DNA of 64,000 nucleotides from a virus. Lineage: Duplodnaviria; Caudoviricetes. The notes beneath the pieces are model-generated. The model was not told where the DNA came from, made no database searches, and saw only the letters and a program-made list of their open reading frames with translations. Shown one piece after another: positions 8,564 through 23,802 of the stretch (positions within the stretch are counted from its first letter, which is position 1; each line of letters starts with the position of its first letter). The DNA lies in the IMG/VR virus record IMGVR_UViG_3300021431_000075, positions 288,001-352,000 of that record; one strand, 5' to 3'. Made by a program: the position numbers and the translations under genes.

Positions 8564-9295
8564 ATGCAGGATATGGCAAGGAAAAGAAGAAATAGCGAGG
8601 ACATGTTCGCAGGACAGAGCCTCAGGAGCATAGCCGGTCTTCCGGATGCGGGAACCGTGGTCAAGGTGTGCGGACCCGGAGGGGTTCCGCTCGACGTGCT
8701 CGGCAACCCGATTCCGCAGCAGGACGAGAACAGCTATGATATAGAGACCGGCGACGACTACGACTTCAGCGTCAGGGGACTCGAGGACAAGTCCCTCGAC
8801 TACAGGACCGGAGCGAACCCGGAAGCGGACCCGGACAGCCCGTTCGTGAGAAGGCGCGGCGGAGCGGCGTCGGACATGGAGTTCGCGTACAGCGACGACG
8901 ACCTGCTTCCGGAGACGGACAGCGGCTACATCGAGAGCGGAGACGGGTACGAAGGCTCCGGTTATCCGGACGACCACGGTGACTACGGGGAATATGACGA
9001 CTACGGAGAATACGGCGAATATGACGAGTACGGAAGCGACACGTACGCCGGACTCGACGACGAGCAGATAGACGCGATATACGAGGCGCTCTCGGACCCT
9101 TCCGGGAGCAGGAACCCGGCAAGGGTGATTTCCGCTTTCGCGGACAGGAACGGGTACGCCGCTCTCGGTGACCTGTTCTACGACGGAGTGCTCGACGGGG
9201 AGATAGCGGTGGGACCCGAGCTGAGGAAGCACCTCAACTTCATCTACGCGCTAACCAAGACTAACGTGAAGCCGGCAAGCGACTACCTGATGTAG
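8564..9295 (+). CDS. acidic low-complexity protein with GEY/DEY repeats
   Basis: 243 aa, D/E/Y-rich, GDYGEYDDYGEYGEYDEYG tract. Confidence 0.75.
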   Translation: MQDMARKRRNSEDMFAGQSLRSIAGLPDAGTVVKVCGPGGVPLDVLGNPIPQQDENSYDIETGDDYDFSVRGLEDKSLDYRTGANPEADPDSPFVRRRGGAASDMEFAYSDDDLLPETDSGYIESGDGYEGSGYPDDHGDYGEYDDYGEYGEYDEYGSDTYAGLDDEQIDAIYEALSDPSGSRNPARVISAFADRNGYAALGDLFYDGVLDGEIAVGPELRKHLNFIYALTKTNVKPASDYLM

Positions 9296-9321
9296 CCGCA
9301 GGAAGATAGCCGGATGAAAGC

Positions 9322-9389
9322 AGCCGGGGGAGCTGTCCTGTCACTGGAAGGTGACCGCGGACGCTCTCCCGGCTTCCGTGTCTCCACGG
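9322..9389. other. Long GC-rich hairpin(s) between convergent units
   Basis: AGCCGGG..GTCAC-TGGAAG-GTGAC..CCCGGCT, then CCGTG-TCTC-CACGG. Confidence 0.5.
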
Positions 9390-9394
9390 GTCCA

Positions 9395-9646
9395 AAAGGT
9401 AAAAAGATTCATGCATCTCCGAAGAATTAAACATAGTCAAAAAGTAGTCATACTACCATTGATATATTCACTACCTTGTTTAGCAAGGCTTCTTCGAAAC
9501 GATAATAATACTTCCTTCGCCTTTTCACGTTTAAGTTTCTTAGGCTCAAAAGCACTATTATCAAGTTGTTTTAAGAGTGATTCTTGTAACACGGTTACAA
9601 GCACTCTGTTCATTATGTTCTTTGCAGCGTTAAAGTCTGCTGAAAC
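9395..9646 (-). pseudogene. 3' remnant of a tnpB gene (RuvC-III motif plus C-tail and right-end region)
   Basis: AT-rich island in GC-rich DNA; translates ADFNAAKNIMNR...KKLKREKAKEVLLSFRRSL; (N)ADxNAAxNI is the TnpB RuvC-III signature; boundaries approximate. Confidence 0.7.
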
Positions 9647-9651
9647 TCCCG

Positions 9652-10212
9652 CTAAACGTGCGGAAGTATGAGGAACTCGATGGCCGCCCACAGCGCGACT
9701 GCAACCGCGAGTATGACGCGACCGTTCGAGAACAGCCTCTCGTACAGGTCCGGATGGATCCATGAAGGCTCCTTGTCAGAATCATGCCGCGAGACGCCCG
9801 CACGGATTGCCGCGGGCTGCCCGACGTCTCCGCTGTCGTGCGGAACGAAGGCTCCGTCCTCGTCGTCGGAACTGTCGTCTGCTCCGTCTGCGGATTCGGA
9901 AGCCTGCCCGGATTCTCCGGATGCCTCTGTGATGATTATGCCCGGAACGTCTGTTACGGTTCCGCAGCCGGAATCGCTTTCCATATCAACGCGCGTACTG
10001 TCCGGAAGTCCGGGGTTGTCTTGATTGTCTTTATCAGCGCATGTGACGCAAGTCTCCTGTTCTGCAACCGGTTTCCGTGACATTGCAGCAGCATCGGTTT
10101 CCGTGACGCCTGTCTCCTGTTCCGCGCTGTCCGGGATTCCGCGGTCCGAAGCCGGAACCATCGCCGCAGCCGGTATGAGCACGCGCCTATGTCTTCTTTG
10201 TTCGTTTGCCAT
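9652..10212 (-). CDS. acidic protein with C-terminal transmembrane anchor
   Basis: D/E/S-rich body; VILAVAVALWAAIEFLIL at C-terminus; upstream host-type promoter at 10378-10409. Confidence 0.65.
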   Translation of the reverse strand: MANEQRRHRRVLIPAAAMVPASDRGIPDSAEQETGVTETDAAAMSRKPVAEQETCVTCADKDNQDNPGLPDSTRVDMESDSGCGTVTDVPGIIITEASGESGQASESADGADDSSDDEDGAFVPHDSGDVGQPAAIRAGVSRHDSDKEPSWIHPDLYERLFSNGRVILAVAVALWAAIEFLILPHV

Positions 10213-10377
10213 CAGTCATGTCATGTTTCATTTCTGCGCACAATCTCTGCCGTCTGTTCGGGGATGCGTCCGCGCCGCCTTTGCAAAAGCAATGAATATG
10301 GCGTACAAGAACAATCAGTCCGAAACTGTCCGGCGGCGCGGGTCCCCTGATGAAACAGACACAGATTCATGCTGGTG

Positions 10378-10409
10378 CAAAGGTATGCATTTTCTGTGAG
10401 CCGTGCAAG
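10378..10409 (-). promoter_or_regulatory. Bacteroidota primary-sigma promoter (-33/-7)
   Basis: CTTG-N20-TACCTTTG on - strand. Confidence 0.6.
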
Positions 10410-12516
10410 AATAATGACGGAAAAACTCGCGATTTGTATATTTTTAACATTTCAGGCGGATACAGGAGTTATACGGTTTTGTGTTACGCATTTCTGTATA
10501 ATGTGTTTCCGGATGCGGTTCTCCAATGATTTGCATAATTATTCAGCCAAATGAATATGCGACTTTTTGTATATACGGTATAATTATGCATATATTCATG
10601 CATCTTGCATATACGGTTTCATTGCATAATTATGCATTCATATCTACGGAGATGAAGTCTGCCGGATGAAGAATCCTAACAAAAGCTAAAGCATTTTCAC
10701 TATTGTTAGGACTTTCCATGCGCGCCAGCCGGTTTATGCGCAAGCCGCCTGTTCAAGACAAATGCAGTATTTTGCCATGGGAAAGCAATCAGGGAATGCT
10801 CTGTACGAGTCCGTTGTGGATGATGTGGCAAATGCTGCCGGAAAGAAACCGTAAGAAAGCACGGATGAGTCAAGGAGCGTGTGCAGTGTCTTTCTGCAGC
10901 CGCTCCGCTTCTTGTATATGCGATATAGTGCTGTGCTGCCTTTTCATCACGAAAAGTTCGTGACGAAAAATTCGCGATGACGCTGTCTTGCGAGTCCGGA
11001 CCCGTGACACTCGTGAATGCTGAGCAAGAATCCATTCTTTATATGTAATGCGCCTTTTATGGAAGAATGACCGTCCGTGTACCGGACAGTGTGTGTGAGT
11101 GACCGTGCATTTCCGGACTTGTATATGCAGTATGCGGATTCAGAACGCAAGGTTTATGCCTTGTTTCACGGAAAGCAAGGTGTATTCCTTGTTTAATGAC
11201 GGCGCCGGAACGCTGTGTCGGAAACCGGCGGACCGAATGCAATGATATTTCACGATGAACCGGTTTTTGAACGAAGATATGAATGAACAGATGAACAAGC
11301 GGTTGAACAAGCGGAAACCGTATGGAATCGCGAAACGGCTACGTTCTGTGCAACGGACGCGCGGTCGGCTGCATCCGCGTCTTGGCGGCATAACGCCGGC
11401 TTGAGACCGCTGCTATGATAGGGAATGCGGATGAAACCGCGGGTGCGGAGCATGATGATGCGCGAATGCGGATAGATGGACGCTGCCGGGACCGGGAATA
11501 TCGGAAAGATTGGCGGAAGAAGCCGGCAATGCGGAGAATGTTAGGGATAAATCCGTGAGTAAGGAAGAATATGATATAGATTTATGGAGATTTGCGGATG
11601 AATTTATCGGGCGGATGCCGGTTTGTAGGGATTCCGGGGGAATGGTCCGGACGACTTTCCTGATTTTGACAGGCGGAATGCACGGAACCGGGGAAGAACG
11701 GATGATTTGCGGACAGGATAATGGAAAGAACTTGAATGACGGCTGGAAATATTAGGCGTATTGATGCGATTTCGGCATTGAGTGTGTCGAATGCGAGCGA
11801 CTGTAGGCAAGAGACCTTGACTTGCTCGGGTTCTGCAAGCCGAATGAAGCCGCGGATGCACGTCTTGAGACCGAAAATGATTCGGTTTCGGCTGCGGAAT
11901 GAACAGAATGTTCGCCGAAAGGTTGTAGGCTTGAGACCTTTTTAAGATTGTGCGGAAGCCGAGCTTGAGACCGAGGGAAGATTTGACTTAGGCAAATACG
12001 GAAATATTAAGCCGATATTGTATTGATTTTTGGAGAGCCTGAAGTTCAAGAAGTTAAGTTTTTCCTCAGATGAGATAAATAAAGGTTCAGAAGGTGTCTA
12101 TTTGGCTCTATATGGCATTTTCATACACAAAGTGTATGAACGGTAGTCTAAAATTCAAACGGCTCTTATATGCGATTTTTTAATCTTGTATATAATGACT
12201 GGTTTCTTTTGACTACATATGTGTGTTTCTTAAATCTTAACATCTTTCTTTGATTCTTCGGATTATTATCTTCATATGTTGGACTTACAGATGGTGGTTG
12301 TTCAAACAAGAACAAGTCTGAATTCATATCATCAATAAAGATAATAATAAACTATGGACATAAATAAGACTTCTGGAACCATTCACTATACCATTTAGTA
12401 TATAGAGTTATTTTTAATCCGTCGTTGTTCTTATGTATGTTAAGGTTTCTTCCTTTCGACTCGGTTCTTTGTTTATAGTTTGATTATGCTGTTTTAATTC
12501 AAAAAATACCTGCATG

Positions 12517-12630
12517 GGTTTCTTGCTCACAATTTGCAATGGATTCAACCAATCAGTTAATGTTGGTCTCTTGCACACAACTTGCACAGGTCTCTTGCTC
12601 ACAACTCACGCAGGTTTCTTGCTTGCGCAA
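12517..12630 (+). repeat. Iteron-like repeats GGTYTCTTGC(WCACAA), 24-bp phased
   Basis: Copies start at 12517, 12565, 12589, 12613; inverted copy GCAAGAGACC at 11807-11816. Confidence 0.8.
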
Positions 12631-13689
12631 TAAGCATAATATTGATTTTAACTATATCCGGTTTATGAAAGAATGGTTCCATTGCATTTGCTTCAGTTCT
12701 CTTTGCATCAGTTCCTTTTCGCTTGGTTCTTTGCAATGATGTTCTTTTTCAACTTGGATTCTTACGCTTGGTTCTATTCTATTTGTATCTCACATTCTTT
12801 GTATCTAATATCCAGTTTCAATTGCGCTTGGTTTTGCACTTGCATATAAAGTACTGGTTCCTTGCCTGCAAGCAGTTCAACTAACCAATGACCGGTTTCA
12901 TGCCTGCGCATTCACTGCACCCTTTCAACTTCCAATTGCGAAGAAAAGAACCAAAAGCCGGTTGTGCTCTGAACATAATGAACATAACGCTTTGCTGTTT
13001 GACGACTGTTTGGTTCCTTTCCCTTTTCATTATAGTTCGCTTTGCGAGTTAGAGTCAGTTCTGCTCTCTTGTATTTTACTCATTTTCTTACAGCAATGAC
13101 TTTTGTCCAGTTATTGACCCGCTTAATATATCATCCCCCATCACATAATTTACTAAGCGGGTCGGAAATTGGACACTTTTCACACGGTTTCTTTTTGCTT
13201 GCATTGATTCGACTAACCAATGTCACTTTTAACAAAAAAGAAAGCATAACATAGTTTTTCGCAACCAGAACTAACAACACACCCTGCTGTACGATTGGTT
13301 CTCGAAGCGAAACAGTCTTGCGGACGGCAATATATGCGCTAATGCGATTCGACAGACAGGTGAATTCGTTTATAGCGCTTGCTTGGTTTGCACGGTTCCT
13401 TGCCATTGTGTCATGCAAGCAGTTTCATTATCAGATTATTGGTTCTCGGCATCCTTCTCACCTACCGATGCAATCGCTTGCAGAGACGGTCGTGTCGGTT
13501 GGTCTCGGTTCCGTTCTCTTGCGATTCGCAAGCGCGGTTCCGTGTTTCGTGTACCCTTCTTGTTGTTGCTTCATTTCCGGCAGGTGACTGCATTCAGCGG
13601 ATTCTTCCGCAGAACCGCTATGCGGGTCATCGTATCGTGATGTTTCAGGACTGCTGACTTAGAAACGAATGCACATCATCGGTTCCTGC

Positions 13690-13953
13690 TTGCAGGCATT
13701 GGAACGGATTGAGACGGGTGCGGTCGTTCGCGTCCATGGCAGACGGCTTCCCTATGCAGCATGATTAGTTCTCGATGCGGATTGGAGTGAATGGACTGTT
13801 TGTCTTGGACTTCTGTTCGTTATGTGTTCTGGATTCCTTTTTTTATTTTATGCAATAAATAAACAAAATGCATTTTTTGATTAAATGAGAAAACAAAATA
13901 AGAGAGCTCTTTACGAGAGCATCATGAGAGATGTTGCTAAGGTTGTCAAGAGA
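13690..13953 (+). repeat. Direct repeat copy 1 (upstream region, late box, MRKQNK leader)
   Basis: Near-identical to 14874-15144. Confidence 0.9.
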
Positions 13954-14472
13954 CGACTGAGCGAGGGTTTATATGACTTTGATTCAACAAATTCATACGA
14001 TGATGTTGATGACATTATTAATAGAAGAGATGAAGAAAGACGCAGAAATGAATTTGCTGAAAAATATGAAATTGTTGACAAAATGCCAATAGAAGGTTTT
14101 AGGAGAGTTGTGAATAAAAATACAGGCAAAGAAAATTATATAGACTCAAAAGGTCGTTTTATTTCAAGAAATTGGTATGATAGGTGTTATCCGTTCAATA
14201 AAGAAGGTTATGCAAAAGTTAGAACAACAAAAGTTAGAACAAATAATTTTGGAGAACGATACACATATAATCTTATGAATAAAGACGGACGTATTTTGTT
14301 TGGGTACTGGTGTGAAGAGTTGCATGATTTAAAGGACAGCGATTATGTATTAGTTAAGATAAACGGTTCTTATAATTTTATAGATCTGCATGAAAGATTT
14401 TTGTTTAATTCATGGTTTAAATCCAAAGCCGATGCTTTAGAAGCTTATTATAAACATTATGAAAAATTGTAA
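13885..14472 (+). CDS. short WG-repeat protein with MRKQNK...LYESI leader
   Basis: MRKQNKRALYESIMRDVAKVVKRRLSE then ENYIDSKG, YNLMNKDG, YNFID repeats; ATAAATA 13855-13861. Confidence 0.85.
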   Translation: MRKQNKRALYESIMRDVAKVVKRRLSEGLYDFDSTNSYDDVDDIINRRDEERRRNEFAEKYEIVDKMPIEGFRRVVNKNTGKENYIDSKGRFISRNWYDRCYPFNKEGYAKVRTTKVRTNNFGERYTYNLMNKDGRILFGYWCEELHDLKDSDYVLVKINGSYNFIDLHERFLFNSWFKSKADALEAYYKHYEKL

Positions 14473-14511
14473 GATGGATAACAGAATTATTGGAATATAA
14501 TTAAAAGAAGC

Positions 14512-14546
14512 AAAAGTCGTTCTGCCAAAATCAGAGCGACTTTTTT
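14512..14546 (+). terminator. Intrinsic terminator (AAAGTCG...CGACTTTT type)
   Basis: Stem plus T6 after 13885..14472. Confidence 0.75.
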
Positions 14547-14641
14547 GTAAGAGTTATGTCAATTTCAATGAACAGTTATGTTTGTTCTGTTTCTTTTGGA
14601 CATTCTCAATAAATATCAATATAAACCATGCTGTTGGAAAA

Positions 14642-14896
14642 ATGTCTGCATATAAATTCTTGAATGAAAGCTTGCTGGATGATGTTGAAACTGATGATGT
14701 TGATGATGTTGATATAGAAGCAGAAGATAGTTTTGCGGGAGAAGAGCCTTTTGTTTGGGTTTTTAAATACGAACACACTGTTCCGTCATGCACGAGGGAT
14801 TATCTCAATAAGATACTGGCAAGCAGCGAGTGTGTTGGAAAGTTTGACGAACTTATGTTTAATGATGACTATATTGCAGGCATTGGAACGGATTGA
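14642..14896 (+). pseudogene. Truncated chimeric ESLLD-family gene
   Basis: MSAYKFLNESLLDDVETDD...DDYIAGIGT nearly identical to the start of 18214..19887, then stops on entering the 14874 repeat. Confidence 0.85.
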
Positions 14897-15144
14897 GACG
14901 GGTGCGGTCGTTCGCGTCCGGAGCCGATGGCTTCCCTAATGCAGTCCCATGCAGCACGATTGGTTCATGATGCGGATTGGAGTGAATGGACTGTTTGTCT
15001 TGGACTTCTGTTCGTTATGTGTTCTGGATTCTTTTTTTTTGTGCAATAAATAAACAAAATGCATTTTTTGATTAAATGAGAAAACAAAACAAGAGAGCTC
15101 TTTACGAGAGCATCATGAGAGATGTTGCTAAGGTTGTCAAGAGA
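14874..15144 (+). repeat. Direct repeat copy 2
   Basis: Near-identical to 13690-13953. Confidence 0.9.
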
Positions 15145-16110
15145 AAGCTTAACGAAGAAGATGACCTTTATGATTCAGAAACCGGTAGTAAGAGATATCG
15201 TATATTCCAGAGACTAAGTGACGGCATGGCAATTATTACTAAATACCATAGATATAATTTTATAAACAGAGATGGATTTATCATATCACCTACTTGGTTT
15301 GATTGGGTTGGTAATGATTTTTATGAGGGTTTTGCAAGAGTCGAGAAAAATGACAAATGTAATTTTATAGATAAAAATGGCAATTTGCTTCTTGATGAAT
15401 GGATGTTTGATCGAGTTAGTGATTTTCATGAGGGTTTTGCAAGAGTCTGGAATGACGACAAATGTAATTTTATAGATAAAAATGGCAATTTGCTTCTTGA
15501 TGAATGGTTTGAAGGAGTTGGTAATTTTCATGAGGGTTTTGCACCAGTCTGGAACAAGGAAGACCGGAAAATGAATTTCATAGATAAAAACGGAGATCTT
15601 TTATGTCGTGAATGGTTTGATGAAGTTGATGATTTTCATGAGGGATTTGCAAGAGTCTTGAAAAATTACAAATGTAATTTTATAGATAGAAATGGCAATT
15701 TGCTTTTTGATAAATGGTTTGATCGAGTTGGTGATTTTCATGAAGGTTTTGCACCGGTCTGGAACAAGGAAAACTGGAAAATGAATTTCATAGATAGAAA
15801 CGGAGATCTTTTATGCAGTGAATGGTTTGATGAAGTTAGCAATTTCAAGGACGGTTACGCAATAGTCCGTTTGAGATATGAGGAGAATGTTATTAATACC
15901 GACGGGAAATATATGCTTCCTGAATGGTACGACTATTGTTATCCGAAGAGAAACGGCGAGATAATGGTTATGCGTCGTAGAGGAACTGGTTTCCAGATTG
16001 GTGAGTACGACTCGAGAGGCAGATTCAACGGCGAATGGCGCGATATTGATAAGAACAGTCGTGAATATAAGTTATTCATCGGAAGAAGAATAAACTTACA
16101 ATATAAATAG
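15076..16110 (+). CDS. WG-repeat protein with MRKQNK...LYESI leader
   Basis: Leader ends RKLNE; five near-identical F(H/Y)EGFAxV...NFIDxNG...WF units; ATAAATA 15046-15052. Confidence 0.92.
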   Translation: MRKQNKRALYESIMRDVAKVVKRKLNEEDDLYDSETGSKRYRIFQRLSDGMAIITKYHRYNFINRDGFIISPTWFDWVGNDFYEGFARVEKNDKCNFIDKNGNLLLDEWMFDRVSDFHEGFARVWNDDKCNFIDKNGNLLLDEWFEGVGNFHEGFAPVWNKEDRKMNFIDKNGDLLCREWFDEVDDFHEGFARVLKNYKCNFIDRNGNLLFDKWFDRVGDFHEGFAPVWNKENWKMNFIDRNGDLLCSEWFDEVSNFKDGYAIVRLRYEENVINTDGKYMLPEWYDYCYPKRNGEIMVMRRRGTGFQIGEYDSRGRFNGEWRDIDKNSREYKLFIGRRINLQYK

Positions 16111-16145
16111 ATAAAATCTTCATATGTGATAGTAAAAACAATATT

Positions 16146-16180
16146 AAAAAGTCGTATGCATAACACATGCGACTTTTTTT
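16146..16180 (+). terminator. Intrinsic terminator (AAAGTCG...CGACTTTT type)
   Basis: Stem plus T7. Confidence 0.75.
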
Positions 16181-16236
16181 GTGTTATGTTTGTCTGTGGC
16201 GTGTTCTGCAGAATATTTGTTTCCGTTATATTCGGA

Positions 16237-16316
16237 TTTGTATATACCGGGTTATATATGCTATATTTGCAAGGTAATCTGCTGCTGTGTATCGCCGGGG
16301 TGTTGGATGATAAATA
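16237..16316 (+). promoter_or_regulatory. Host-type promoter plus GATAAATA box upstream of 16338
   Basis: TTTG 16237-16240, N21, TATATTTG 16262-16269; GATAAATA 16309-16316. Confidence 0.55.
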
Positions 16317-16337
16317 CAAAAAACTATTCATTTTTGA

Positions 16338-18167
16338 ATGAAAGCGTCTGTGTATGGTAAATTTTCGAACAAGTGTCTGGATGAAAGCCTGATGAATAAT
16401 ATAGAGCCTGATGAAGTTGAAGATGTTGATATAGAAGTTGATGGTAGATATGATGTGCATTTTGATTTTGTCATAGACGGACTTGTTAGTCAAAAGGACC
16501 ATTATTTTACGGATTTGTCTTATCGCGATATTTTTGAACGGATGGTTTTTGTTTTTAAAAACATAGAGTCATCTGGCGTTGGTTTGTGGTGGAAATTCAA
16601 TTGGAATAATGATAAAGTGGCAGGATTTGTGCAGATAAAGATAGACGAGTATTTTGATTTTGATAGATTCTGCAATCTGTTCATGAAACTGTTTTTTGCA
16701 AAGAATCATATCAATACCATAATATATTCTAATACTAATGCCACATTTGAAGACGAGTACGAATATAAGTTGAAAACGAAGTTTTCCGAAGACATTGTCG
16801 TGGAATACGAGTTCTTTGCTGACCAGTTCGGAACGTTGTTGAGAATAGTCAATAAAAATCAGTTATTGGATTTTATTCGAATGGTATTTCGCGATAACAT
16901 ATCAGAAGACGTAGTCATCAAGACTTTCGCGGATGCGTTTATGAACTGGCAGAAACAAGACGGAAAAGAAACTGTAATTTGTTTCGATAAAGAAGGAAAC
17001 AATCCGTTTTATTTCGTGAATGCAAACGGAACCATGTTTACAAGCCAACAGTTTTACAAGATTTATCATTTTAAAAATGGTTTTGCAAAAGTTAAAAGAA
17101 AATGTAGCCAAAGTTCGTCAAATGAAGGATATGAATATAATTTCGTAGATAAGAACGGAAAGTGCATTTCTGACAAATGGTTTATAGAGGCATGGGATTT
17201 CAGCAGCGAAGGTTTTGCAAAAGTTAATCGGGGATATAAATATAACTACATAGACAAGAAAGGAAATTGCATTTCTGACGAAGGGTTTAACTGGGTTGAT
17301 GATTTGTTCGAAGGTGGATTCGGAATCGTCAGAACATGGGGCAGAAACGAGAACCTCATATATAATTATGTAGATAAGAACGGAAAATACATTTCATACA
17401 AATGGTATGGAGAAGCATGGCATTTTAGCGAAGGCTTTGCAGTGGTCAAATGCAACGGGAAATATAATTTCATAAACAAATACGGAAATTATATTTCGCG
17501 CGACTGGTTTGATTATGTCAATTCGTTCAATGAAGGAGTTGCATGGGTTGAGATTGGCAAAAAAACGAATTTCATAGATAAGAACGGAAAGTATATTTTT
17601 AAAGATTGGTTGCAAGAGTCAATATCAGTAAACAATTTCCGCAATGGTTTTGCATGTGTTTATGACAGTACAAAGCGTAAATATAATCTCATAGACAAGA
17701 CGGGAAAATATATTTCAGGCAAATGGTTCGATGCTATACATACTGGTTTTAATAAAGACGGAAGAGCAGTGGTAGAAATCAACGGAGAATATAATTTCAT
17801 AGACAAGAGAGGAAACATAATTCTTAAAAATGGGTTTAGATGTAGACAAATTAGTTCTTTTGTTGGAAGTTTTTATGATGAAGGTCTTTTGTTAGTCAAG
17901 GTGGGTAGAGAAGGATATAATTTCATAGATAAGAACGGAGAATACTTGTACAAGAATGGTATGTTTGAAAGATGTAGTGAGTTTCATAACGGAGTATCTA
18001 TGTGTACAAAATATGGAAGAAATGGATACTTGACGACTTCTGGAGAATTCATTTGTGACGGAGGAGATCTTTTTTCAATTGTGCGTCCTTTAAAAGATAT
18101 CTTCATATTGCGGTACGGAACCGGCGCGATGGTTGATTCAAACGGAGAACTTGTCTCGTTGATTTAA
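16338..18167 (+). CDS. WG-repeat protein with ESL acidic leader
   Basis: CLDESLMNNIEPDEVED; many YNFxDKNG repeats; C-terminus VDSNGELVSLI. Confidence 0.92.
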   Translation: MKASVYGKFSNKCLDESLMNNIEPDEVEDVDIEVDGRYDVHFDFVIDGLVSQKDHYFTDLSYRDIFERMVFVFKNIESSGVGLWWKFNWNNDKVAGFVQIKIDEYFDFDRFCNLFMKLFFAKNHINTIIYSNTNATFEDEYEYKLKTKFSEDIVVEYEFFADQFGTLLRIVNKNQLLDFIRMVFRDNISEDVVIKTFADAFMNWQKQDGKETVICFDKEGNNPFYFVNANGTMFTSQQFYKIYHFKNGFAKVKRKCSQSSSNEGYEYNFVDKNGKCISDKWFIEAWDFSSEGFAKVNRGYKYNYIDKKGNCISDEGFNWVDDLFEGGFGIVRTWGRNENLIYNYVDKNGKYISYKWYGEAWHFSEGFAVVKCNGKYNFINKYGNYISRDWFDYVNSFNEGVAWVEIGKKTNFIDKNGKYIFKDWLQESISVNNFRNGFACVYDSTKRKYNLIDKTGKYISGKWFDAIHTGFNKDGRAVVEINGEYNFIDKRGNIILKNGFRCRQISSFVGSFYDEGLLLVKVGREGYNFIDKNGEYLYKNGMFERCSEFHNGVSMCTKYGRNGYLTTSGEFICDGGDLFSIVRPLKDIFILRYGTGAMVDSNGELVSLI

Positions 18168-18213
18168 TTGTTTGATATTCAATAAATATGAATATAAACA
18201 ATGTTGTGAATAA

Positions 18214-19887
18214 ATGTTTGCATATAAGTTCTTGAACGAGAGCATTCTCGACAATGTTGAAACTGATGATGTTGAAGATGTTGATATAGAAACAGAAGAT
18301 AGTTTTGATGGTGAAGAACCTTTTGTTTGGGTTTTTAATTACAAGCAAACTGTTCCGTCATGCACAAGGGATTATATCAATAAGATACTGGCAAGCAGCG
18401 AGTGTGTTGGAAAGTTTGACGAACTTATGTTTAATGATGACTATATTGCAGGCATTGGAACGGTAAAGAATTCGATAATCAGCGTCGGGTTCTATTCTCA
18501 CTGCAACGATTTCCGCAAGTATTGCGATTTGTTCGTCTCGCTTCTGCTTCCGAATGAATGCGTTGTTGAAATATACACGGGACAACACTACCGTTCCGGT
18601 TCGGAAATCGTACTGAATTTCAGGAACGGCGAGCTGTCCGAAACGGAGCGTCAGATGAGAAGCGACATAGAAATCTCATCGTTTCAAAATTTCGTCAACT
18701 TCTTTAAGCCGGTTGTCGGCAAGCTCGGGGTTTCGGTCGAGCATAGAGACATTTGCTGTTATGTTGTCAACGCGTTATGCAAGCATGACCGGTTCAGCAT
18801 GAAAAACAAGCCGTTTTATGTAGTGGGAACTGACATCGACGGCGTTTACCTGATAGACCGGTCAGGAAAACTGGTTTTGAAGGGGTTCGGAAGCGGTTAC
18901 AGTTTTCATAACGGCTATGCCGGGTTCGGCGATGATTCCCGCGGCTATTTCTATATAGGTCCGGATGGAAAGATTGACATGAACAAGTTCTCCGCATCGG
19001 GATACAGGCGTTTTTCGGATGACGGTTTCGCCGTGACTGTGAACAAGGAGTCAAGGGAGAATTATATCGACCGTGATTGGAACTTGGTTTCCGGAGAATG
19101 GTTTCAGAAGTGCTACGAGTTCGTGAACGGTTTCGGAAAGGTCAAGAAAAACGGAAAGTTCAATTTCATAGACAGGACCGGAAAGCTTGTTTCCAAGACA
19201 TGGTTCGTCAATTGCGAGAACTTTGACGAGGACGGCATGGTTGTCGTGACCGTGAAAGACAAGTCGAACAACAAGGCTTATAATTACATGGACGGTTCTG
19301 GAAAATTGATTCTGGACAAGAACTATAGGCTGTGCTTGCCGTTCAGCGATGGCGTTGGATGCGTGTTTGACGGTGAATACGGTTCTGTATTATGCAACTA
19401 TGTTAACAAGAATGGTCGTTTCATATCGGAGCAATGGTTTCTTCATCCAACAGGTCCGATGGTTGCCGAGCATAGTTTCAGCGGCGGATACGCATGCGTC
19501 TTGAATCGGGATGGCGGGTGCAATATGATAGACACCCGTGGAAAACTATTGTTTGATGATTGGAACAGAAAAATCAGGTTCGGCAAGTTTTCGGAAGGAT
19601 TCTGCAGTTTTGTAGAATATGGAAAGGGTTATGGATTTATCGACAAGACGGGAAAGAGAATCACTGATGAATATTTTGACAGCGTGACAGACTTCGAAGA
19701 CGGATTCGCGTTTGTTGTCAATCTTGAAAACGACGAGTTGAATAACTATATCAACACGAAAGGGGAGCTGATGCTTCCGTGGATGGATTCTGACGATATA
19801 AGCGCTTATGTTCCGAAGGACGGGTTGCTGTTCAACATATATGGAAATTGCATTGATTCGAACAAAGATTTGGTTTCTGTGATTTGA
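18214..19887 (+). CDS. WG-repeat protein with ESILD acidic leader
   Basis: FLNESILDNVETDDVED; repeats; C-terminus IDSNKDLVSVI; ATAAATA 18182-18188. Confidence 0.92.
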   Translation: MFAYKFLNESILDNVETDDVEDVDIETEDSFDGEEPFVWVFNYKQTVPSCTRDYINKILASSECVGKFDELMFNDDYIAGIGTVKNSIISVGFYSHCNDFRKYCDLFVSLLLPNECVVEIYTGQHYRSGSEIVLNFRNGELSETERQMRSDIEISSFQNFVNFFKPVVGKLGVSVEHRDICCYVVNALCKHDRFSMKNKPFYVVGTDIDGVYLIDRSGKLVLKGFGSGYSFHNGYAGFGDDSRGYFYIGPDGKIDMNKFSASGYRRFSDDGFAVTVNKESRENYIDRDWNLVSGEWFQKCYEFVNGFGKVKKNGKFNFIDRTGKLVSKTWFVNCENFDEDGMVVVTVKDKSNNKAYNYMDGSGKLILDKNYRLCLPFSDGVGCVFDGEYGSVLCNYVNKNGRFISEQWFLHPTGPMVAEHSFSGGYACVLNRDGGCNMIDTRGKLLFDDWNRKIRFGKFSEGFCSFVEYGKGYGFIDKTGKRITDEYFDSVTDFEDGFAFVVNLENDELNNYINTKGELMLPWMDSDDISAYVPKDGLLFNIYGNCIDSNKDLVSVI

Positions 19888-19982
19888 TAGAGAGTTGTTA
19901 TTATAGTATGTAGATGATAACGGTTTTCTCAATAAATATGAATGTACTTAAATAGATAAATACTATAAAATCTATAAACATT

Positions 19983-20579
19983 ATGTGGTTGACAAGCAAA
20001 GAATTTAGAAAGAAATATAAGATAACACCCCAACATCTGTATGCATTGAAGAAATCCGGGAAGATAGAGACCAAGCCGTCAGTCGGTTCGTCATACTTAA
20101 TAAACGACTCTTTTGAATCAGAAAATAAGTCTGTGTGTGTTTATGGAAGAGTGTCTACACCGAAGCAGTCAAAAGACCTTGACAACCAGATAAGACTCAT
20201 CAAGGAATACTGCATATCAAGGGGTGAGAACCCTGAATATGTGTTCAGCGATATCGGTTCTGGAATGAACGAGTCAAGAAACAGTTTGAACAAAATGCTC
20301 GACCTTGTCATCAATAATAAGATTTCCAAGATAGTAATTTCACATAAGGACAGACTTACAAGATTCGGTTTCAAGTACATAGAGAACATCTGCAACAGGT
20401 TCGGGACGACAATCGAGATTGTGAATCTTGATGACGACAAGTCGTTTCAGGAAGAGTTGACTGATGATTTGATAGCAATAATTCATCACTTCAGCATGCG
20501 TTTCTACGGAAAAAGACGAGACAAGATGAAGGACTTTGAGAGAACTTGCAAAAACGAGTTATTGAATGAAGATAAATAA
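19983..20579 (+). CDS. tnpA: IS607 transposase TnpA (HTH + serine recombinase)
   Basis: N-terminal HTH, YGRVST catalytic Ser motif, SDIGSG, HKDRLTRFG, EELTDDLIAIIHHFSMRFYG. Confidence 0.93.
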   Translation: MWLTSKEFRKKYKITPQHLYALKKSGKIETKPSVGSSYLINDSFESENKSVCVYGRVSTPKQSKDLDNQIRLIKEYCISRGENPEYVFSDIGSGMNESRNSLNKMLDLVINNKISKIVISHKDRLTRFGFKYIENICNRFGTTIEIVNLDDDKSFQEELTDDLIAIIHHFSMRFYGKRRDKMKDFERTCKNELLNEDK

Positions 20580-20601
20580 TATATAAAAGATAAAATTTAT
20601 A

Positions 20602-21855
20602 ATGATAAGGTCTTGGAGTATAGTGACAGAAGCAAACGACATCATTCATGGAATGATGTCGGAAGCGTTGTCCATATATGACAAGGCGCTGTACTTCCAG
20701 CGACAAAGATACTTCGAGACAAAAAAGCAGGGAGACATAAAGACATATGATTATAATGACTTGTACGAGCTGGTGAAAGAAACCGACGTGTTCAAGAACT
20801 CGAAACTGGACTATGTTCTTCGTCAGAATCAGATAAGGGAAGTTATAGCGAACTGGAACAAGTATATCAAGGCTGTGATAAGGTACAAGGAGCATCCAGA
20901 ACTGTTCGACAAAAAGCCGAGGATACCGAACTACTTGTATAAGCGCAAGAATTATACGTCAGTATATGTAGACAGTTCGAGGTTCAGAAAGGGAAAGAAG
21001 AAGATAGAACACTCGATTACCTTGCCTTGTACAACGGAATGTATTGTGATTCCAAGACAGATAGACATCAAGAGCATACACCAATTGATACTGAAGCCGT
21101 ACTACGGCAAAGTGAAGATTTGCATCATATTCAATGAAAAAACAAAGAAAATAAAAATAGATTCAGACAAGCGTTCAGCAATCGGGATAGATATTGGATT
21201 GAACAACTTCTGTGCCATAACTTCAAACGACAAGAGCATTTCTTATGTCGTTAAGGGTGGTCCGCTGAAGAGCATCAACCAGTACTACAACAAGAAGAGA
21301 GCGGAACTGTACTCTGAACTTGCAAATTGCAACAAGAATCAAGATTCAAGCCATGCTTTGGACAGACTCTCCATGAAGCGCAAGCACAAGATGTACAACT
21401 TCATACATGCTGTTGCAAACAGAATCATAATGCTCTGCATAGAGAACAGGATTTCAACCATCTACATTGGTCACAACAAGGGATGGAAGCAGAATGCAAA
21501 TCTTGGTCGCAGAAACAACCAGAACTTCGTTTCTGTTCCGTTCAATGAACTGATTAATACGTTGCAGGACAAGGCGAAGCGTTACGAGAATCTTAAGGTG
21601 GTTGTAGTTGAAGAAAGCTACACAAGCAAGTGCGATCACTTGGCTTACGAGACTATGGAACACCATGACACGTATCTTGGAAAGCGAATCAAGAGAGGAC
21701 TGTTCAAGAGTTCGACTGGAAAGGAACTCAACGCTGACATAAACGGTGCCATAGGAATCTTGAGGAAAGGAAATGCAATCTCGGATGTTCAACTTAAGAA
21801 CTTACGGGATAGAGGCGATGTTGTATCGCCAGAGGTGTTGAGAATCAACCCTTAA
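20602..21855 (+). CDS. tnpB: TnpB RNA-guided endonuclease
   Basis: RuvC-I AIGIDIGLNN, IGHNKGWKQ, EESYTSK, RIKRGLF, RuvC-III NADINGAIGI. Confidence 0.93.
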   Translation: MIRSWSIVTEANDIIHGMMSEALSIYDKALYFQRQRYFETKKQGDIKTYDYNDLYELVKETDVFKNSKLDYVLRQNQIREVIANWNKYIKAVIRYKEHPELFDKKPRIPNYLYKRKNYTSVYVDSSRFRKGKKKIEHSITLPCTTECIVIPRQIDIKSIHQLILKPYYGKVKICIIFNEKTKKIKIDSDKRSAIGIDIGLNNFCAITSNDKSISYVVKGGPLKSINQYYNKKRAELYSELANCNKNQDSSHALDRLSMKRKHKMYNFIHAVANRIIMLCIENRISTIYIGHNKGWKQNANLGRRNNQNFVSVPFNELINTLQDKAKRYENLKVVVVEESYTSKCDHLAYETMEHHDTYLGKRIKRGLFKSSTGKELNADINGAIGILRKGNAISDVQLKNLRDRGDVVSPEVLRINP

Positions 21856-21928
21856 ATAAAAACATATAGTTTATATTCTTTATATAAATGTATGTTTTTA
21901 ATACAATATAAACCATGCTGTTGGAAAA
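21800..21928 (+). ncRNA. Predicted omegaRNA (scaffold overlapping tnpB 3' end, guide from right flank)
   Basis: Hairpins GGCGAT..ATCGCC (21814-21830) and AAAAACATA..TATGTTTTT (21858-21899) just before the right end; 5' boundary unknown. Confidence 0.55.
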
Positions 21929-23802
21929 TGTCTGCATATAAGTTACTGAATGAAAGCCTTCTTGATGATGTTGATGCTGATGAAGTAGAAGATGTCGAAA
22001 ATGATGTTTCCATTGGATTTTCATTAACGATAAAAGCTGCACGCAAAATCACAGATAAAGAATATGTCAAGTCTTTTCGTGAACATATGCGATTCGCCGC
22101 CGGACGGTTCAGCGATTCGGGATGTCAGGTTGGTTTGGATGTGAACGTGATGAAATCTGATTATCTGGAAGGGAAAATAAAGATACAGAGAAATCTTTAT
22201 GTTTATGATTTTTGCAATTTGTTTGTGCAGATGTTTTTCCCGAATGGTTGTAGCTGTTTCGGAAGCATCGGTTATGTTAACTTAGATTTGGAAGTGGCAA
22301 TAGCAGGCGATGAATATGTGAAGTGTATGTTTGTAGACAAAGAAGAAAAGAAGACATTGAATATAAGCAAAACGTCAACGTTTTTAAGTTTCTTTCATGT
22401 GTTGTTTCCTGAAGAAAAAGATGATTCGATCATCAAGTCTTTTGTAAGTGCATTTAAAAACTGGAAGAAAGAGAAAGGGGAAGCGATTGAAATATGCTTT
22501 GATTATGAAGGACGCGATAGAACTTATTTCATATATGCAAACGGAAATATGCTTTCTGATATGCATTTTTATGAAGTTGAAGATTTCAAAGAAGGTTTTG
22601 CACAAGTCAAGAAGAACGACAAATGGAATTTCATAGACACGGGCGGAAATTGTATTTCAAAAGACTGGTTTGATTATGTCGGTAATATTCAAGAAGGTTT
22701 TGCTCCAGTCGTGGAGAAAGGCAAATGGAATTTTATAGACATGGACGGAAATCGCATTTCAAAAGAATGGTTTGATTTTGTCGGTGTTTTCCAAGAAGGT
22801 TTTGCACTGGTCAAGAAGAACGGCAAAAGTAATCTCATAGATACAAGCGGAAAAATCATCTTGAATGACTGGTTTGATTATGTCGGCGCTTTTCAAGAAG
22901 GTTTTGTAAGAGTCATGAAAGGTAGTGAATGGAATTTCATAGACATGAATGGAAATTTTATTTCAAAAGAATGGTTTGATTTTGATGATGTTTTTGATTT
23001 TCAAAAAGGTTTTGCAAAAGTCTATAAAGATGGTAAATATAATTTCTTAGATACAAGCGGAAAATGCATTTCAAAAGACTGGTTTGATTGTGTCGGTGTT
23101 TTCCAAGAAGGTTTTGCACAAGTCAAGAAGGACGGCAAATGGAATTTTATAGGCACAAATGGAAAATGCATCTCGAATGAGTGGTTTGAACGTGTCGGTA
23201 ATTTTCAAGACGGTTTTGGATGTGTCAAGAAAGATGGTAAAAGTAATCTCATAGACACAAGCGGAAAAATCATCTTGAATGACTGGTTTGATTATGTCGG
23301 TGTTTTCCAAGAAGGTTTTGCGCCGGTCGAGAAGAACGGCAAATGGTATTTCATAGACAAAAGTGGAAATCGTATTTCAAAAGACGGGTTTGACGATGTC
23401 GGGGATTTTCAAGAAGGTTTTTCATATGTCAATAAGAAAAACAAGTATAATTTCATGGACACAAGCGGAAATTATATTTCAAAAAGATGGTTTGATAACG
23501 TTTTGGATTTTCAAGAAGGTTTTGCACAAGTCAAGAACAAAGGCGGATGGAATTTCATAGATACGAAAGGCAAGCTTCTGTATAAGAAAGGGATGTTTGA
23601 CAAATGCGAAGATTTCAAGCAAGGCGTCGCTCTGGTCGTGAAAGACGGCAAGTATTCTTACTTGAACACTTCTGGAGAACTCGTTTGTGACTATTTCGAC
23701 AACCGGTTTTCTGTTGTCCGCATTTCGGATGACATGTTTAGGTTGCAGTATGGTTTGGGTTCCCTCATAGATTTGAATGGGGAAATCGTCTCGCTGATTT
23801 AG
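21928..23802 (+). CDS. WG-repeat protein with ESLLD acidic leader
   Basis: MSAYKLLNESLLDDVDADEVED; about ten near-identical FQEGF...NFID...WFD units; C-terminus IDLNGEIVSLI. Confidence 0.92.
   Translation: MSAYKLLNESLLDDVDADEVEDVENDVSIGFSLTIKAARKITDKEYVKSFREHMRFAAGRFSDSGCQVGLDVNVMKSDYLEGKIKIQRNLYVYDFCNLFVQMFFPNGCSCFGSIGYVNLDLEVAIAGDEYVKCMFVDKEEKKTLNISKTSTFLSFFHVLFPEEKDDSIIKSFVSAFKNWKKEKGEAIEICFDYEGRDRTYFIYANGNMLSDMHFYEVEDFKEGFAQVKKNDKWNFIDTGGNCISKDWFDYVGNIQEGFAPVVEKGKWNFIDMDGNRISKEWFDFVGVFQEGFALVKKNGKSNLIDTSGKIILNDWFDYVGAFQEGFVRVMKGSEWNFIDMNGNFISKEWFDFDDVFDFQKGFAKVYKDGKYNFLDTSGKCISKDWFDCVGVFQEGFAQVKKDGKWNFIGTNGKCISNEWFERVGNFQDGFGCVKKDGKSNLIDTSGKIILNDWFDYVGVFQEGFAPVEKNGKWYFIDKSGNRISKDGFDDVGDFQEGFSYVNKKNKYNFMDTSGNYISKRWFDNVLDFQEGFAQVKNKGGWNFIDTKGKLLYKKGMFDKCEDFKQGVALVVKDGKYSYLNTSGELVCDYFDNRFSVVRISDDMFRLQYGLGSLIDLNGEIVSLI

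What the first reader, a model, noticed from the sequence alone, without database searches (positions are those of the whole stretch)
14600..21930. IS607 sits in a family 5' UTR, so its TnpB guide matches a WG paralog whose site appears TAM-escaped
Seen: the reconstructed empty site is ...AATAAATATGAAT|ATAAACCATGCTGTTGGAAAATG. Known: TnpB guides derive from the right flank and the TAM equals the left-junction sequence. The predicted guide ATAAACCATGCTGTTGGAAAA (21908-21928) has a perfect 21-nt second match at 14621-14641. That copy is preceded by TCAAT rather than TGAAT, mimicking the element's own right end (ACAAT). The paralog UTR before 18214 has TGAAT but mismatches after six guide bases. 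So both sister sites look immune, and the perfect match heads the recombinant pseudogene. Inference: an RNA-guided nuclease aimed at a conserved multigene UTR could home between co-infecting phages, select escape variants and trigger array recombination. The shared core is AAT/AT rather than the GG usual for IS607.
Basis: partly seen in the sequence, partly recalled or inferred. Interest (0 to 1): 0.85.

Follow-up and report, generated by a model that had tools for sequence, protein, structure and literature searches.

The report
Megaphage IS607 whose guide matches a paralogue
A complete jumping gene with an RNA-guided nuclease sits just upstream of one copy of a repeated gene in a giant rumen phage; its predicted guide also matches a sister copy that lacks the adjacent recognition motif, but nothing shows that this sister copy mutated in order to escape.

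Summary
Window 19944-21907 is a 1964-bp IS607-family element (tnpA serine recombinase, tnpB, omegaRNA-like 3' end). It lies between a promoter-like box and the start codon of a WG-repeat paralogue, in a 673-kb direct-terminal-repeat phage from ruminant gut.

A contig from another sheep-gut study skips exactly these 1964 bp, with AAT shared at the joint, so the ends and the non-GG core are real. The 21-nt right flank recurs only once in the genome, at 14621-14641.

Nine independent insertions have left flanks TGAAT x4, AGAAT x3, TGCAT and AAAAT. The right end is ACAAT in 18 of 19 copies. Only position -4 (G versus C) therefore separates a target from the element's own end. The sister site has TCAAT and is predicted to be immune.

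'Escape' is not supported.

One new point: presence or absence of the IS travels with a flank haplotype of at least 0.5 kb. That fits exchange by homologous recombination, and homing is one possible cause. Cleavage, the TAM and homing are all untested.

This is a new variant of a known kind, of moderate interest. Another first-stage note in this scan (e1-5708159) covers the same stretch.

The parts
19944..21907 (+). IS607-family element, 1964 bp. The boundaries are ambiguous by the shared AAT.
   Evidence: A contig of run X3 skips 19940->21905 (1964 nt, 3 shared letters). L229 has the empty site. Related copies diverge exactly at these ends.
19939..19943 (+). Left flank TGAAT, the inferred target-adjacent motif. 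Its last 2-3 nt (AT/AAT) form the crossover core.
   Evidence: Left flanks of 9 independent insertions are TGAAT x4, AGAAT x3, TGCAT and AAAAT.
19944..19982 (+). Left end (GTACTTAAATAGATAAATAC...), with repeated ATAAA-type motifs.
   Evidence: Conserved in related copies. The first 24 nt are kept in the tnpA-less derivatives.
19983..20579 (+). tnpA, a serine recombinase of 198 aa.
   Evidence: PF00239. NF033518 IS607 family transposase, 172.8 bits against a cut-off of 110.
20602..21855 (+). tnpB, 417 aa: D197, alternative Glu E338, D379; no CxxC zinc finger.
   Evidence: PF01385 and PF07282. NF040570. The three residues are invariant in 28 homologues. dN/dS 0.11-0.20. Fold matches TnpB, Cas12f and Fanzor2.
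21770..21907 (+). Predicted omegaRNA scaffold (5' end not determined): four hairpins, then a single-stranded AAUACAAU.
   Evidence: MFE -41.6 kcal/mol, z -5.87. Helices at 21779-21809 and 21814-21830 have compensatory changes in 19 relatives. No Rfam family matches.
21903..21907 (+). Right-end terminus ACAAT. It resembles the TAM except for C at -4.
   Evidence: TACAAT ends 18 of 19 related copies (46-92% TnpB identity), and the sequence after it is variable.
21908..21928 (+). Predicted guide template, which is also the 5' UTR of WG paralogue C. The A of its ATG is 21928.
   Evidence: Related copies diverge from 21908 on (loose ends).
21928..23802 (+). WG-repeat paralogue C (624 aa), separated from its promoter-like box by the IS.
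   Evidence: PF14903. In IS-free relatives it follows paralogue B after 84 nt.
14606..14620 (+). Promoter-like box TCAATAAATAT followed by CAAT. TCAAT at 14616-14620 occupies the TAM position of the sister site.
   Evidence: Identical in L229 and L228.
14621..14641 (+). Second perfect 21-nt match to the predicted guide.
14642..14896 (+). 84-codon N-terminal fragment (paralogue A). It is a mosaic: C-like at the 5' end, B-like from about 14700 to 14891.
   Evidence: Region 14874-15144 resembles 13690-13953.
18189..18214 (+). Paralogue B site: TGAAT, then a diverged protospacer (first mismatch at position 7; 6 of 21 mismatched).
19431..19901 (+). Flank haplotype linked to the IS: 12 substitutions and an 8-bp indel against the IS-free relative L229.
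   Evidence: At these codons L229 agrees with the other IS-free relatives. There is no donor within the genome.

Best explanation
**What it is.** An autonomous IS607-family insertion sequence of an AT-core, (T/A)GAAT-targeting subfamily. It is inserted between the promoter-like box and the start codon of WG paralogue C, in a 673-kb megaphage from ruminant gut.

**How it works (inferred from the family).**
- TnpA, a serine recombinase, excises and integrates the element by crossover in the shared AT/AAT.
- TnpB binds an RNA made from its own 3' end. That RNA runs through ...AAUACAAU into the flank, so the guide is the UTR of paralogue C.
- The complex should cut empty alleles (TGAAT plus that UTR). 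Such alleles exist in related phages.
- It should spare its own donor junction (ACAAT plus guide).

**The sister site.** The site at 14621 shares the protospacer because a short tract of about 55 nt was recently exchanged between paralogues A and C. It has C at -4, as the element's own end does, so it is predicted not to be cut.

**How I read this.** It is compatibility: the genome is viable because the only other guide match lacks the motif. A selected escape is not shown.

**Shown:** the anatomy, the ends, the empty alleles, the flank motif, the guide match, and intact, constrained genes.
**Inferred:** the TAM identity, cleavage, and the immunity of TCAAT.
For: - **Ends and empty site:**
- **Family assignment:**
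- **TnpB looks functional:** catalytic residues invariant in 28 homologues; dN/dS 0.11-0.20; TnpB/Cas12f/Fanzor2 fold.
- **omegaRNA-like structure:** compensatory pairs and z -5.9.
- **Flank motif:** G at -4 in 8 of 9 independent left flanks, against ACAAT at 18 of 19 right ends. AGAAT flanks show that A at -5 is tolerated, which leaves -4 as the only consistent difference between target and donor.
- **Guide match:** it is unique in the genome.
- **A/C tract:** it differs by one substitution and one indel and includes a uniquely shared upstream C (TTCTCAAT).
- **Sister site without the IS:** the identical TCAAT site is physically linked to an empty IS site in L229.
- **Published IS607 TnpBs:** their TAM equals the left-flank motif including the core: TGGG for CboIStron (bioRxiv 10.1101/2023.11.20.567912) and GGG for ISXfa1 (PMC10711439).
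Against: - No cleavage, TAM or small-RNA data exist for this subfamily.
- The left-flank motif may reflect TnpA's target choice rather than TnpB's TAM.
- The zinc finger usual in TnpB is absent, and the model is of low confidence for residues 339-409.
- The single substitution in the ~55-nt A/C tract falls exactly on -4. That is improbable by chance (about 1 in 58 per substitution, judged post hoc). Paralogue B suggests G is the ancestral state there, so selection is not excluded.
- The IS-free state of L229 could be secondary.
Confidence: 0.6

Rival explanations
1. The sister site once had TGAAT and was cut by the element's own TnpB. A G>C change at -4 was then selected as a TAM escape. Nuclease-induced breaks also drove the recombination that produced the chimeric fragment at 14606-14891.
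For: - The only substitution in the ~55-nt A/C tract is at -4, and it changes G to the base found in the element's own end.
- The nearest outgroup (paralogue B) and paralogue C both have G.
- The C-like to B-like switch in fragment A lies within about 20-60 nt of where a TnpB would cut. This is inference from the distal cleavage known for ISDra2 TnpB.
Against: - L229, with an empty IS site and an IS-free-type flank haplotype, carries the identical TCAAT site on the same contig.
- C after AATAT also occurs in other UTRs of the family: 23814, and the B UTR of X3/X4.
- The argument rests on one site and is post hoc.
- The fragment's 3' junction is explained by a tandem duplication between 13690-13953 and 14874-15144, without any nuclease.
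Confidence: 0.22
2. The element is inert in the phage: TnpB and its RNA are not made, or do not cut phage DNA. The guide match and the TCAAT are then neutral by-products of paralogy with no consequence.
For: - There is no direct evidence of expression. RNA-library contigs over 20372-21749 are thin and could be DNA.
- The zinc finger is missing.
- Most related copies have lost tnpA.
Against: - Purifying selection acts on tnpB across copies at different sites.
- The catalytic residues are invariant.
- Base pairs of the RNA are maintained inside the coding sequence.
- Many independent insertions and both occupied and empty alleles point to recent mobility.
Confidence: 0.13

Closest known systems
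IS607-family IStron of Clostridium botulinum (CboIStron; bioRxiv 10.1101/2023.11.20.567912)
   Same: - Serine-recombinase TnpA followed by TnpB.
- No terminal inverted repeats or target duplication.
- Crossover in a short core shared by both junctions.
- The guide is the right flank, and the TAM is the left-flank motif including the core.
- tnpA-less derivatives occur alongside.
   Different: - The core and TAM are GG and TGGG there, against AT/AAT and (T/A)GAAT here.
- No group I intron was detected here by Rfam.
- The host here is a megaphage, not a plasmid.
ISXfa1 and the 'alternative glutamate' lineage of IS607 TnpBs (PMC10711439)
   Same: - The catalytic Glu sits six residues before the position of the first zinc-finger Cys (E338...C344).
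- RuvC-I reads D-hydrophobic-G (GIDIG).
- The right-end RNA of about 150 nt has several stem-loops and extends past the boundary.
   Different: - ISXfa1 uses a GG core and a GGG TAM and keeps the CxxC zinc finger.
- This TnpB has no CxxC pair.
- Identity to the IS607-type TnpBs of Helicobacter is only about 36%.
IS605-family TnpB homing (ISDra2 and Geobacillus elements; PMC10055086) and the TnpB gene drive of IS in multicopy plasmids (PMC11870625)
   Same: - The proposed role is the same: cut the empty site, then restore or spread the element by recombination with an occupied copy in a multicopy replicon.
- The end of the element differs from the TAM, so the donor is spared.
   Different: - Those elements use a Y1 transposase and single-stranded DNA.
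- Here the 'population' would be co-infecting phage genomes.
- Nothing was tested here.
Free-standing homing endonucleases of T4-like phages (marker exclusion and co-conversion; reviewed in PMC13565253)
   Same: An occupied/empty polymorphism between near-identical phages is linked to a divergent flank tract.
   Different: Recognition there is by protein, not by a guide RNA. Only the left flank could be examined here, and the direction of transfer is unknown.

Membership tests
IS607 family insertion sequence | Serine-recombinase transposase of the IS607 type | tested here: met
   NF033518 equivalog, 172.8 bits against a cut-off of 110; PF00239.
IS607 family insertion sequence | tnpB downstream of tnpA on the same strand, with no terminal inverted repeats | tested here: met
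   Gene order. The ends GTACTT... and ...ATACAAT are not inverted repeats.
IS607 family insertion sequence | Precise insertion without target duplication, with a short core shared by both junctions and the empty site | tested here: met
   The empty-site contig skips 1964 nt with 3 shared letters. L229 reads TGAAT|ATAA.
IS607 family insertion sequence | GG core dinucleotide (stated as strict in PMC13565253; GG in CboIStron and ISXfa1) | tested here: not met
   There is no GG at either junction or in the empty site. The shared letters are AAT, or AT in L008.
TnpB RNA-guided nuclease (OMEGA) | RuvC D-E-D triad | tested here: met
   D197, E338 (alternative position) and D379 are invariant in 28 homologues. 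Placement in the fold is only by alignment, because residues 339-409 are modelled poorly.
TnpB RNA-guided nuclease (OMEGA) | TnpB/Cas12f fold | tested here: met
   Foldseek: AsCas12f 8j3r at 1e-13; TnpB 8iaz and 8h1j at 1e-13 to 2e-13; Fanzor2 9b0l at 1e-8. NF040570, 145 bits against a cut-off of 100.
TnpB RNA-guided nuclease (OMEGA) | CxxC...CxxC zinc finger in the TNB domain | tested here: not met
   There is only one Cys (C344), replaced by V or I in some homologues, and no second pair.
TnpB RNA-guided nuclease (OMEGA) | Structured RNA overlapping the tnpB 3' end and running to the right end | tested here: met
   13 consensus pairs, 6 of them with compensatory changes. z -5.87. No small-RNA data.
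TnpB RNA-guided nuclease (OMEGA) | Guide- and TAM-dependent DNA cleavage | not testable with these tools
   Needs TAM-library and interference assays.
   L229 has an empty IS site and the same TCAAT site on one contig.
   The C at -4 equals the element's own end, and G is found there in 8 of 9 left flanks. There is no assay.

The most novel reading that the evidence does not exclude
An RNA-guided homing drive acts between co-infecting megaphages. The IS607 TnpB cuts the empty TGAAT allele of a multigene-family UTR and copies itself in by recombination, dragging a flank tract along. Because the guide lies in a sequence shared by paralogues, the phage survives only where the sister site carries the same -4 base as the element's own end. 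Nuclease breaks also contribute to turnover of the WG array.
Probability: 0.2. Interest if true: 0.8.

Novelty: new variant of a known kind. Interest (0 to 1): 0.5.

Why it matters
If assays confirm it, this subfamily would show three things.

1. IS607 elements are not tied to GG. The TnpA core (AT) and the TnpB motif ((T/A)GAAT) would have shifted together, and a single base would separate target from donor.
2. It is a natural case in which a guide falls in a sequence repeated within the same genome. That makes the cost of self-targeting, and how it is avoided, testable.
3. Occupied and empty alleles with a linked flank haplotype occur in near-identical megaphages from different animals. This gives material to ask whether TnpB elements spread in phage populations as homing endonucleases do.

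The AT-rich motif and the small, zinc-finger-less TnpB may also interest people who mine TnpBs as genome editors.

Tried and rejected
- **Rfam:** no family matched in the window, or at E<=1 in 21500-22000. So there is no known omegaRNA family and no group I intron.
- **PDB by sequence:** no hit. A fold search was needed.
- **Empty-site pattern in IMG/VR:** no match.
- **Close TnpB relatives in IMG/VR by single protein:** none.
- **Phage GenBank records:** only distant tnpB hits.
- **DNA not retrievable:** three informative contigs could not be fetched: SRR9006805 (3.9 kb), ERZ27257205 (19.5 kb) and ERZ27257202 (3.5 kb). The sister-site allele and the right flank could therefore not be read in the more distant IS-free relatives.
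- **X3 joint 14623->21923 with CATGATAAC between:** this hints at a UTR variant, but the letter at -4 could not be read.
- **RNA-library contigs over the IS (run X6):** too thin, and not separable from DNA, to count as expression.
- **Joints such as 23800->21927 and 19193->21958:** these are cross-matches between paralogues, not rearrangements.
- **Gene conversion within the genome as the source of the 19431-19710 SNP cluster:** rejected, because no donor exists in the genome.
- **Orphan right ends of this element:** none found.
Full report
**Context.** The window is positions 288001-352000 of a 673,114-bp virus record with direct terminal repeats and 40.7% G+C. Sequencing runs that hold this stretch are gut metagenomes, mostly of sheep, cattle and goats. 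The region 13.9-31 kb is a tandem array of WG-repeat genes (PF14903). These share an acidic N-terminal domain, and at least five of them share the upstream box TCAATAAATAT.

**Check of the observation.** Every sequence statement is correct.
- ATAAACCATGCTGTTGGAAAA occurs at 14621-14641 and 21908-21928 and nowhere else with 3 or fewer mismatches in the window. Nothing in the whole genome comes closer than 4 mismatches.
- The 14621 copy follows TCAAT.
- The element ends in ACAAT, and its left flank is TGAAT.
- The UTR of the 18214 gene has TGAAT, then ATAAAC, then its first mismatch at guide position 7.

**The element.** tnpA (19983-20579) matches the IS607 transposase equivalog NF033518. tnpB (20602-21855) matches NF040570, PF01385 and PF07282.

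The ends are fixed by three independent lines of evidence.
1. A second, tnpA-less copy in the same genome (C1:173843-175201, 91% identity) and copies in other metagenomes stop resembling the window exactly at TGAAT|GTA... and ...ATACAAT|.
2. A contig of run X3, from another sheep-gut study, joins 19940 to 21905. It skips 1964 nt with three letters (AAT) that fit either side.
3. L229, a 10.7-kb stretch 99.73% identical to window 9212-19943, reads ...AATAAATATGAAT|ATAA at the site.

Two further relatives place the 624-aa gene 84 nt after the 557-aa gene, so they are also empty. No GG lies at either junction or in the empty site. The crossover must fall in AAT, most likely AT, because one related insertion (L008) shares only AT. 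Reviews and the two studied IS607 systems describe a GG core (PMC13565253; bioRxiv 10.1101/2023.11.20.567912; PMC10711439).

**Is the nuclease likely to work?** Four observations say yes, with two reservations.
- In an alignment of 28 homologues (49-92% identity), D197 (GIDIG), E338 (VEESYTSKC) and D379 (NADINGA) are invariant. The canonical Glu position reads GHN. This is the 'alternative glutamate' arrangement described for a lineage of IS607 TnpBs (PMC10711439).
- Reservation: there is no CxxC zinc finger.
- dN/dS between copies at different sites is 0.11-0.20.
- An AlphaFold model (pLDDT 73) matches Cas12f, ISFba1 and ISDra2 TnpB and mimivirus Fanzor2.
- Reservation: the model is poor for residues 339-409.
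- The last ~130 nt fold into four hairpins (z -5.87). Across 19 relatives, three helices inside the coding region keep pairing through compensatory changes. After the last hairpin comes (A/T)TACAAT, and then the sequence becomes variable. This is the layout of an omegaRNA scaffold followed by a guide.

**The motif next to the target.** Nine independent insertions of this subfamily have left flanks as follows:

| Left flank | Insertions |
|---|---|
| TGAAT | window, L005, L006/7, Treponema MAG L014 |
| AGAAT | L012, L149, L230 |
| TGCAT | L008-10 |
| AAAAT | L011, whose left end is degenerate |

These pentamers each occur about 4 times per kb on both strands of the genome, so the agreement is not chance. 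The right end is ACAAT in 18 of 19 copies. Because AGAAT flanks occur, the only consistent difference between a target flank and the element's own end is G versus C at -4.

In the studied IS607 systems the TAM equals this flank motif. By necessity, the donor junction must not be a good target. From both points I infer that C at -4 is not permissive, so TCAAT plus the guide match at 14621 is as immune as the donor junction. This is inference, because no assay exists.

**Why the sister site matches.** Fragment A (14603-14891) is a mosaic.
- Its first ~55 nt equal the reconstructed C site, apart from the G/C at -4 and one extra A in the A-run. They include an upstream C (TTCTCAAT) that only A and C share.
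- From about 14700 to 14891 it is 91-100% like paralogue B.
- At 14874-14891 it joins a copy of 13690-13953.

The guide match is therefore the product of a recent exchange between paralogues.

**Escape or not?**
- For escape: the single substitution in the tract hits -4, and B and C both have G there.
- Against escape: L229 carries the identical A site on the same contig as an empty IS site.
- L229's flank next to that site is of the type seen in the other IS-free relatives. It shares D406, H442, D453 and the 8-bp insertion with them, so it is not a fresh excision from the window's haplotype.
- C after AATAT is also found in other UTRs of the family.

With one relative lineage available, that condition is met as far as it can be tested. 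I therefore read the site as a compatible variant, and selection as unproven (about 0.2).

**A new observation.** The window and L229 differ at 32 alignment columns in 10.7 kb.
- Twelve substitutions lie in 19431-19710, and an 8-bp indel lies at 19901. Both are within 0.5 kb of the insertion point.
- There are no differences in the 4.4 kb before that.
- No paralogue in the genome could have donated this tract.

Presence or absence of the IS thus travels with a flank haplotype. This is what recombination between related phages would give. Homing with co-conversion is one such process, but ordinary recombination fits equally well. The right flank and the direction of transfer could not be examined.

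**Verdict.** This is a real, well-delimited IS607-family element of an unusual AT-core subfamily in a megaphage. Its predicted guide has one other match in the genome, and that match lacks the inferred motif. The mechanistic story of self-avoidance is coherent and testable. The claims of selected escape and of nuclease-driven array recombination are not supported by the comparative data available.

Noticed in passing
G000:C1:173843-175201 (-), locus L002/L005: A second, tnpA-less copy of the same element (91% nt identity) lies upstream of an OMP beta-barrel gene. Its flanks are TGAAT|...ACAAT|ATAAGTTTAATT. Its predicted guide has no other close match in the genome.
   Followed up: yes
window 19944-19967 joined to 20602 (run X4; also L005-L012): The tnpA-less derivatives all keep about 24 nt of the left end plus a short linker before tnpB. 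The same deletion form is widespread, and most related copies lack tnpA.
   Followed up: partly
window 16309-18213: The WG array differs between relatives. Contigs of X3 and X4 lack the 609-aa gene (16338-18167) and have a different 39-nt UTR before the 18214 gene. Another relative has an extra 263-aa WG gene.
   Followed up: partly
window 14606, 18179, 19929, 23814, 29001: The box (T)CAATAAATAT lies about 30-40 nt upstream of the start codons of five WG paralogues. Only nine exact copies of CAATAAATAT occur in 673 kb. It may be a family-specific promoter. The IS separates paralogue C from its copy of the box.
   Followed up: partly
G000:C1:76595-77191, 86046-86435, 119345-119779, 198768-199202: Four further serine-recombinase genes are 36-40% identical to this tnpA. 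The megaphage seems to carry several other IS607-like elements, and earlier notes describe some with GG junctions.
   Followed up: no
window 14773-14804 and 13837-13879: Small clusters of differences separate the window from the 99.7% relative L229. In fragment A, the L229 letters at 14773 and 14776 are those of paralogue B, which suggests ongoing gene conversion in the array.
   Followed up: partly
window 20372-21749: Contigs from a metatranscriptome library of the same sample as the source cover parts of tnpA and tnpB. They are too thin, and not separable from DNA, to call expression.
   Followed up: partly
P0109 (Lak megaphage Sonny, 659,950 bp): A TnpB 53% identical to this one is annotated in a Lak megaphage. 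Close relatives (55-92%) sit on contigs of 100-670 kb, so this TnpB subfamily seems to live mainly in very large gut phages.
   Followed up: no
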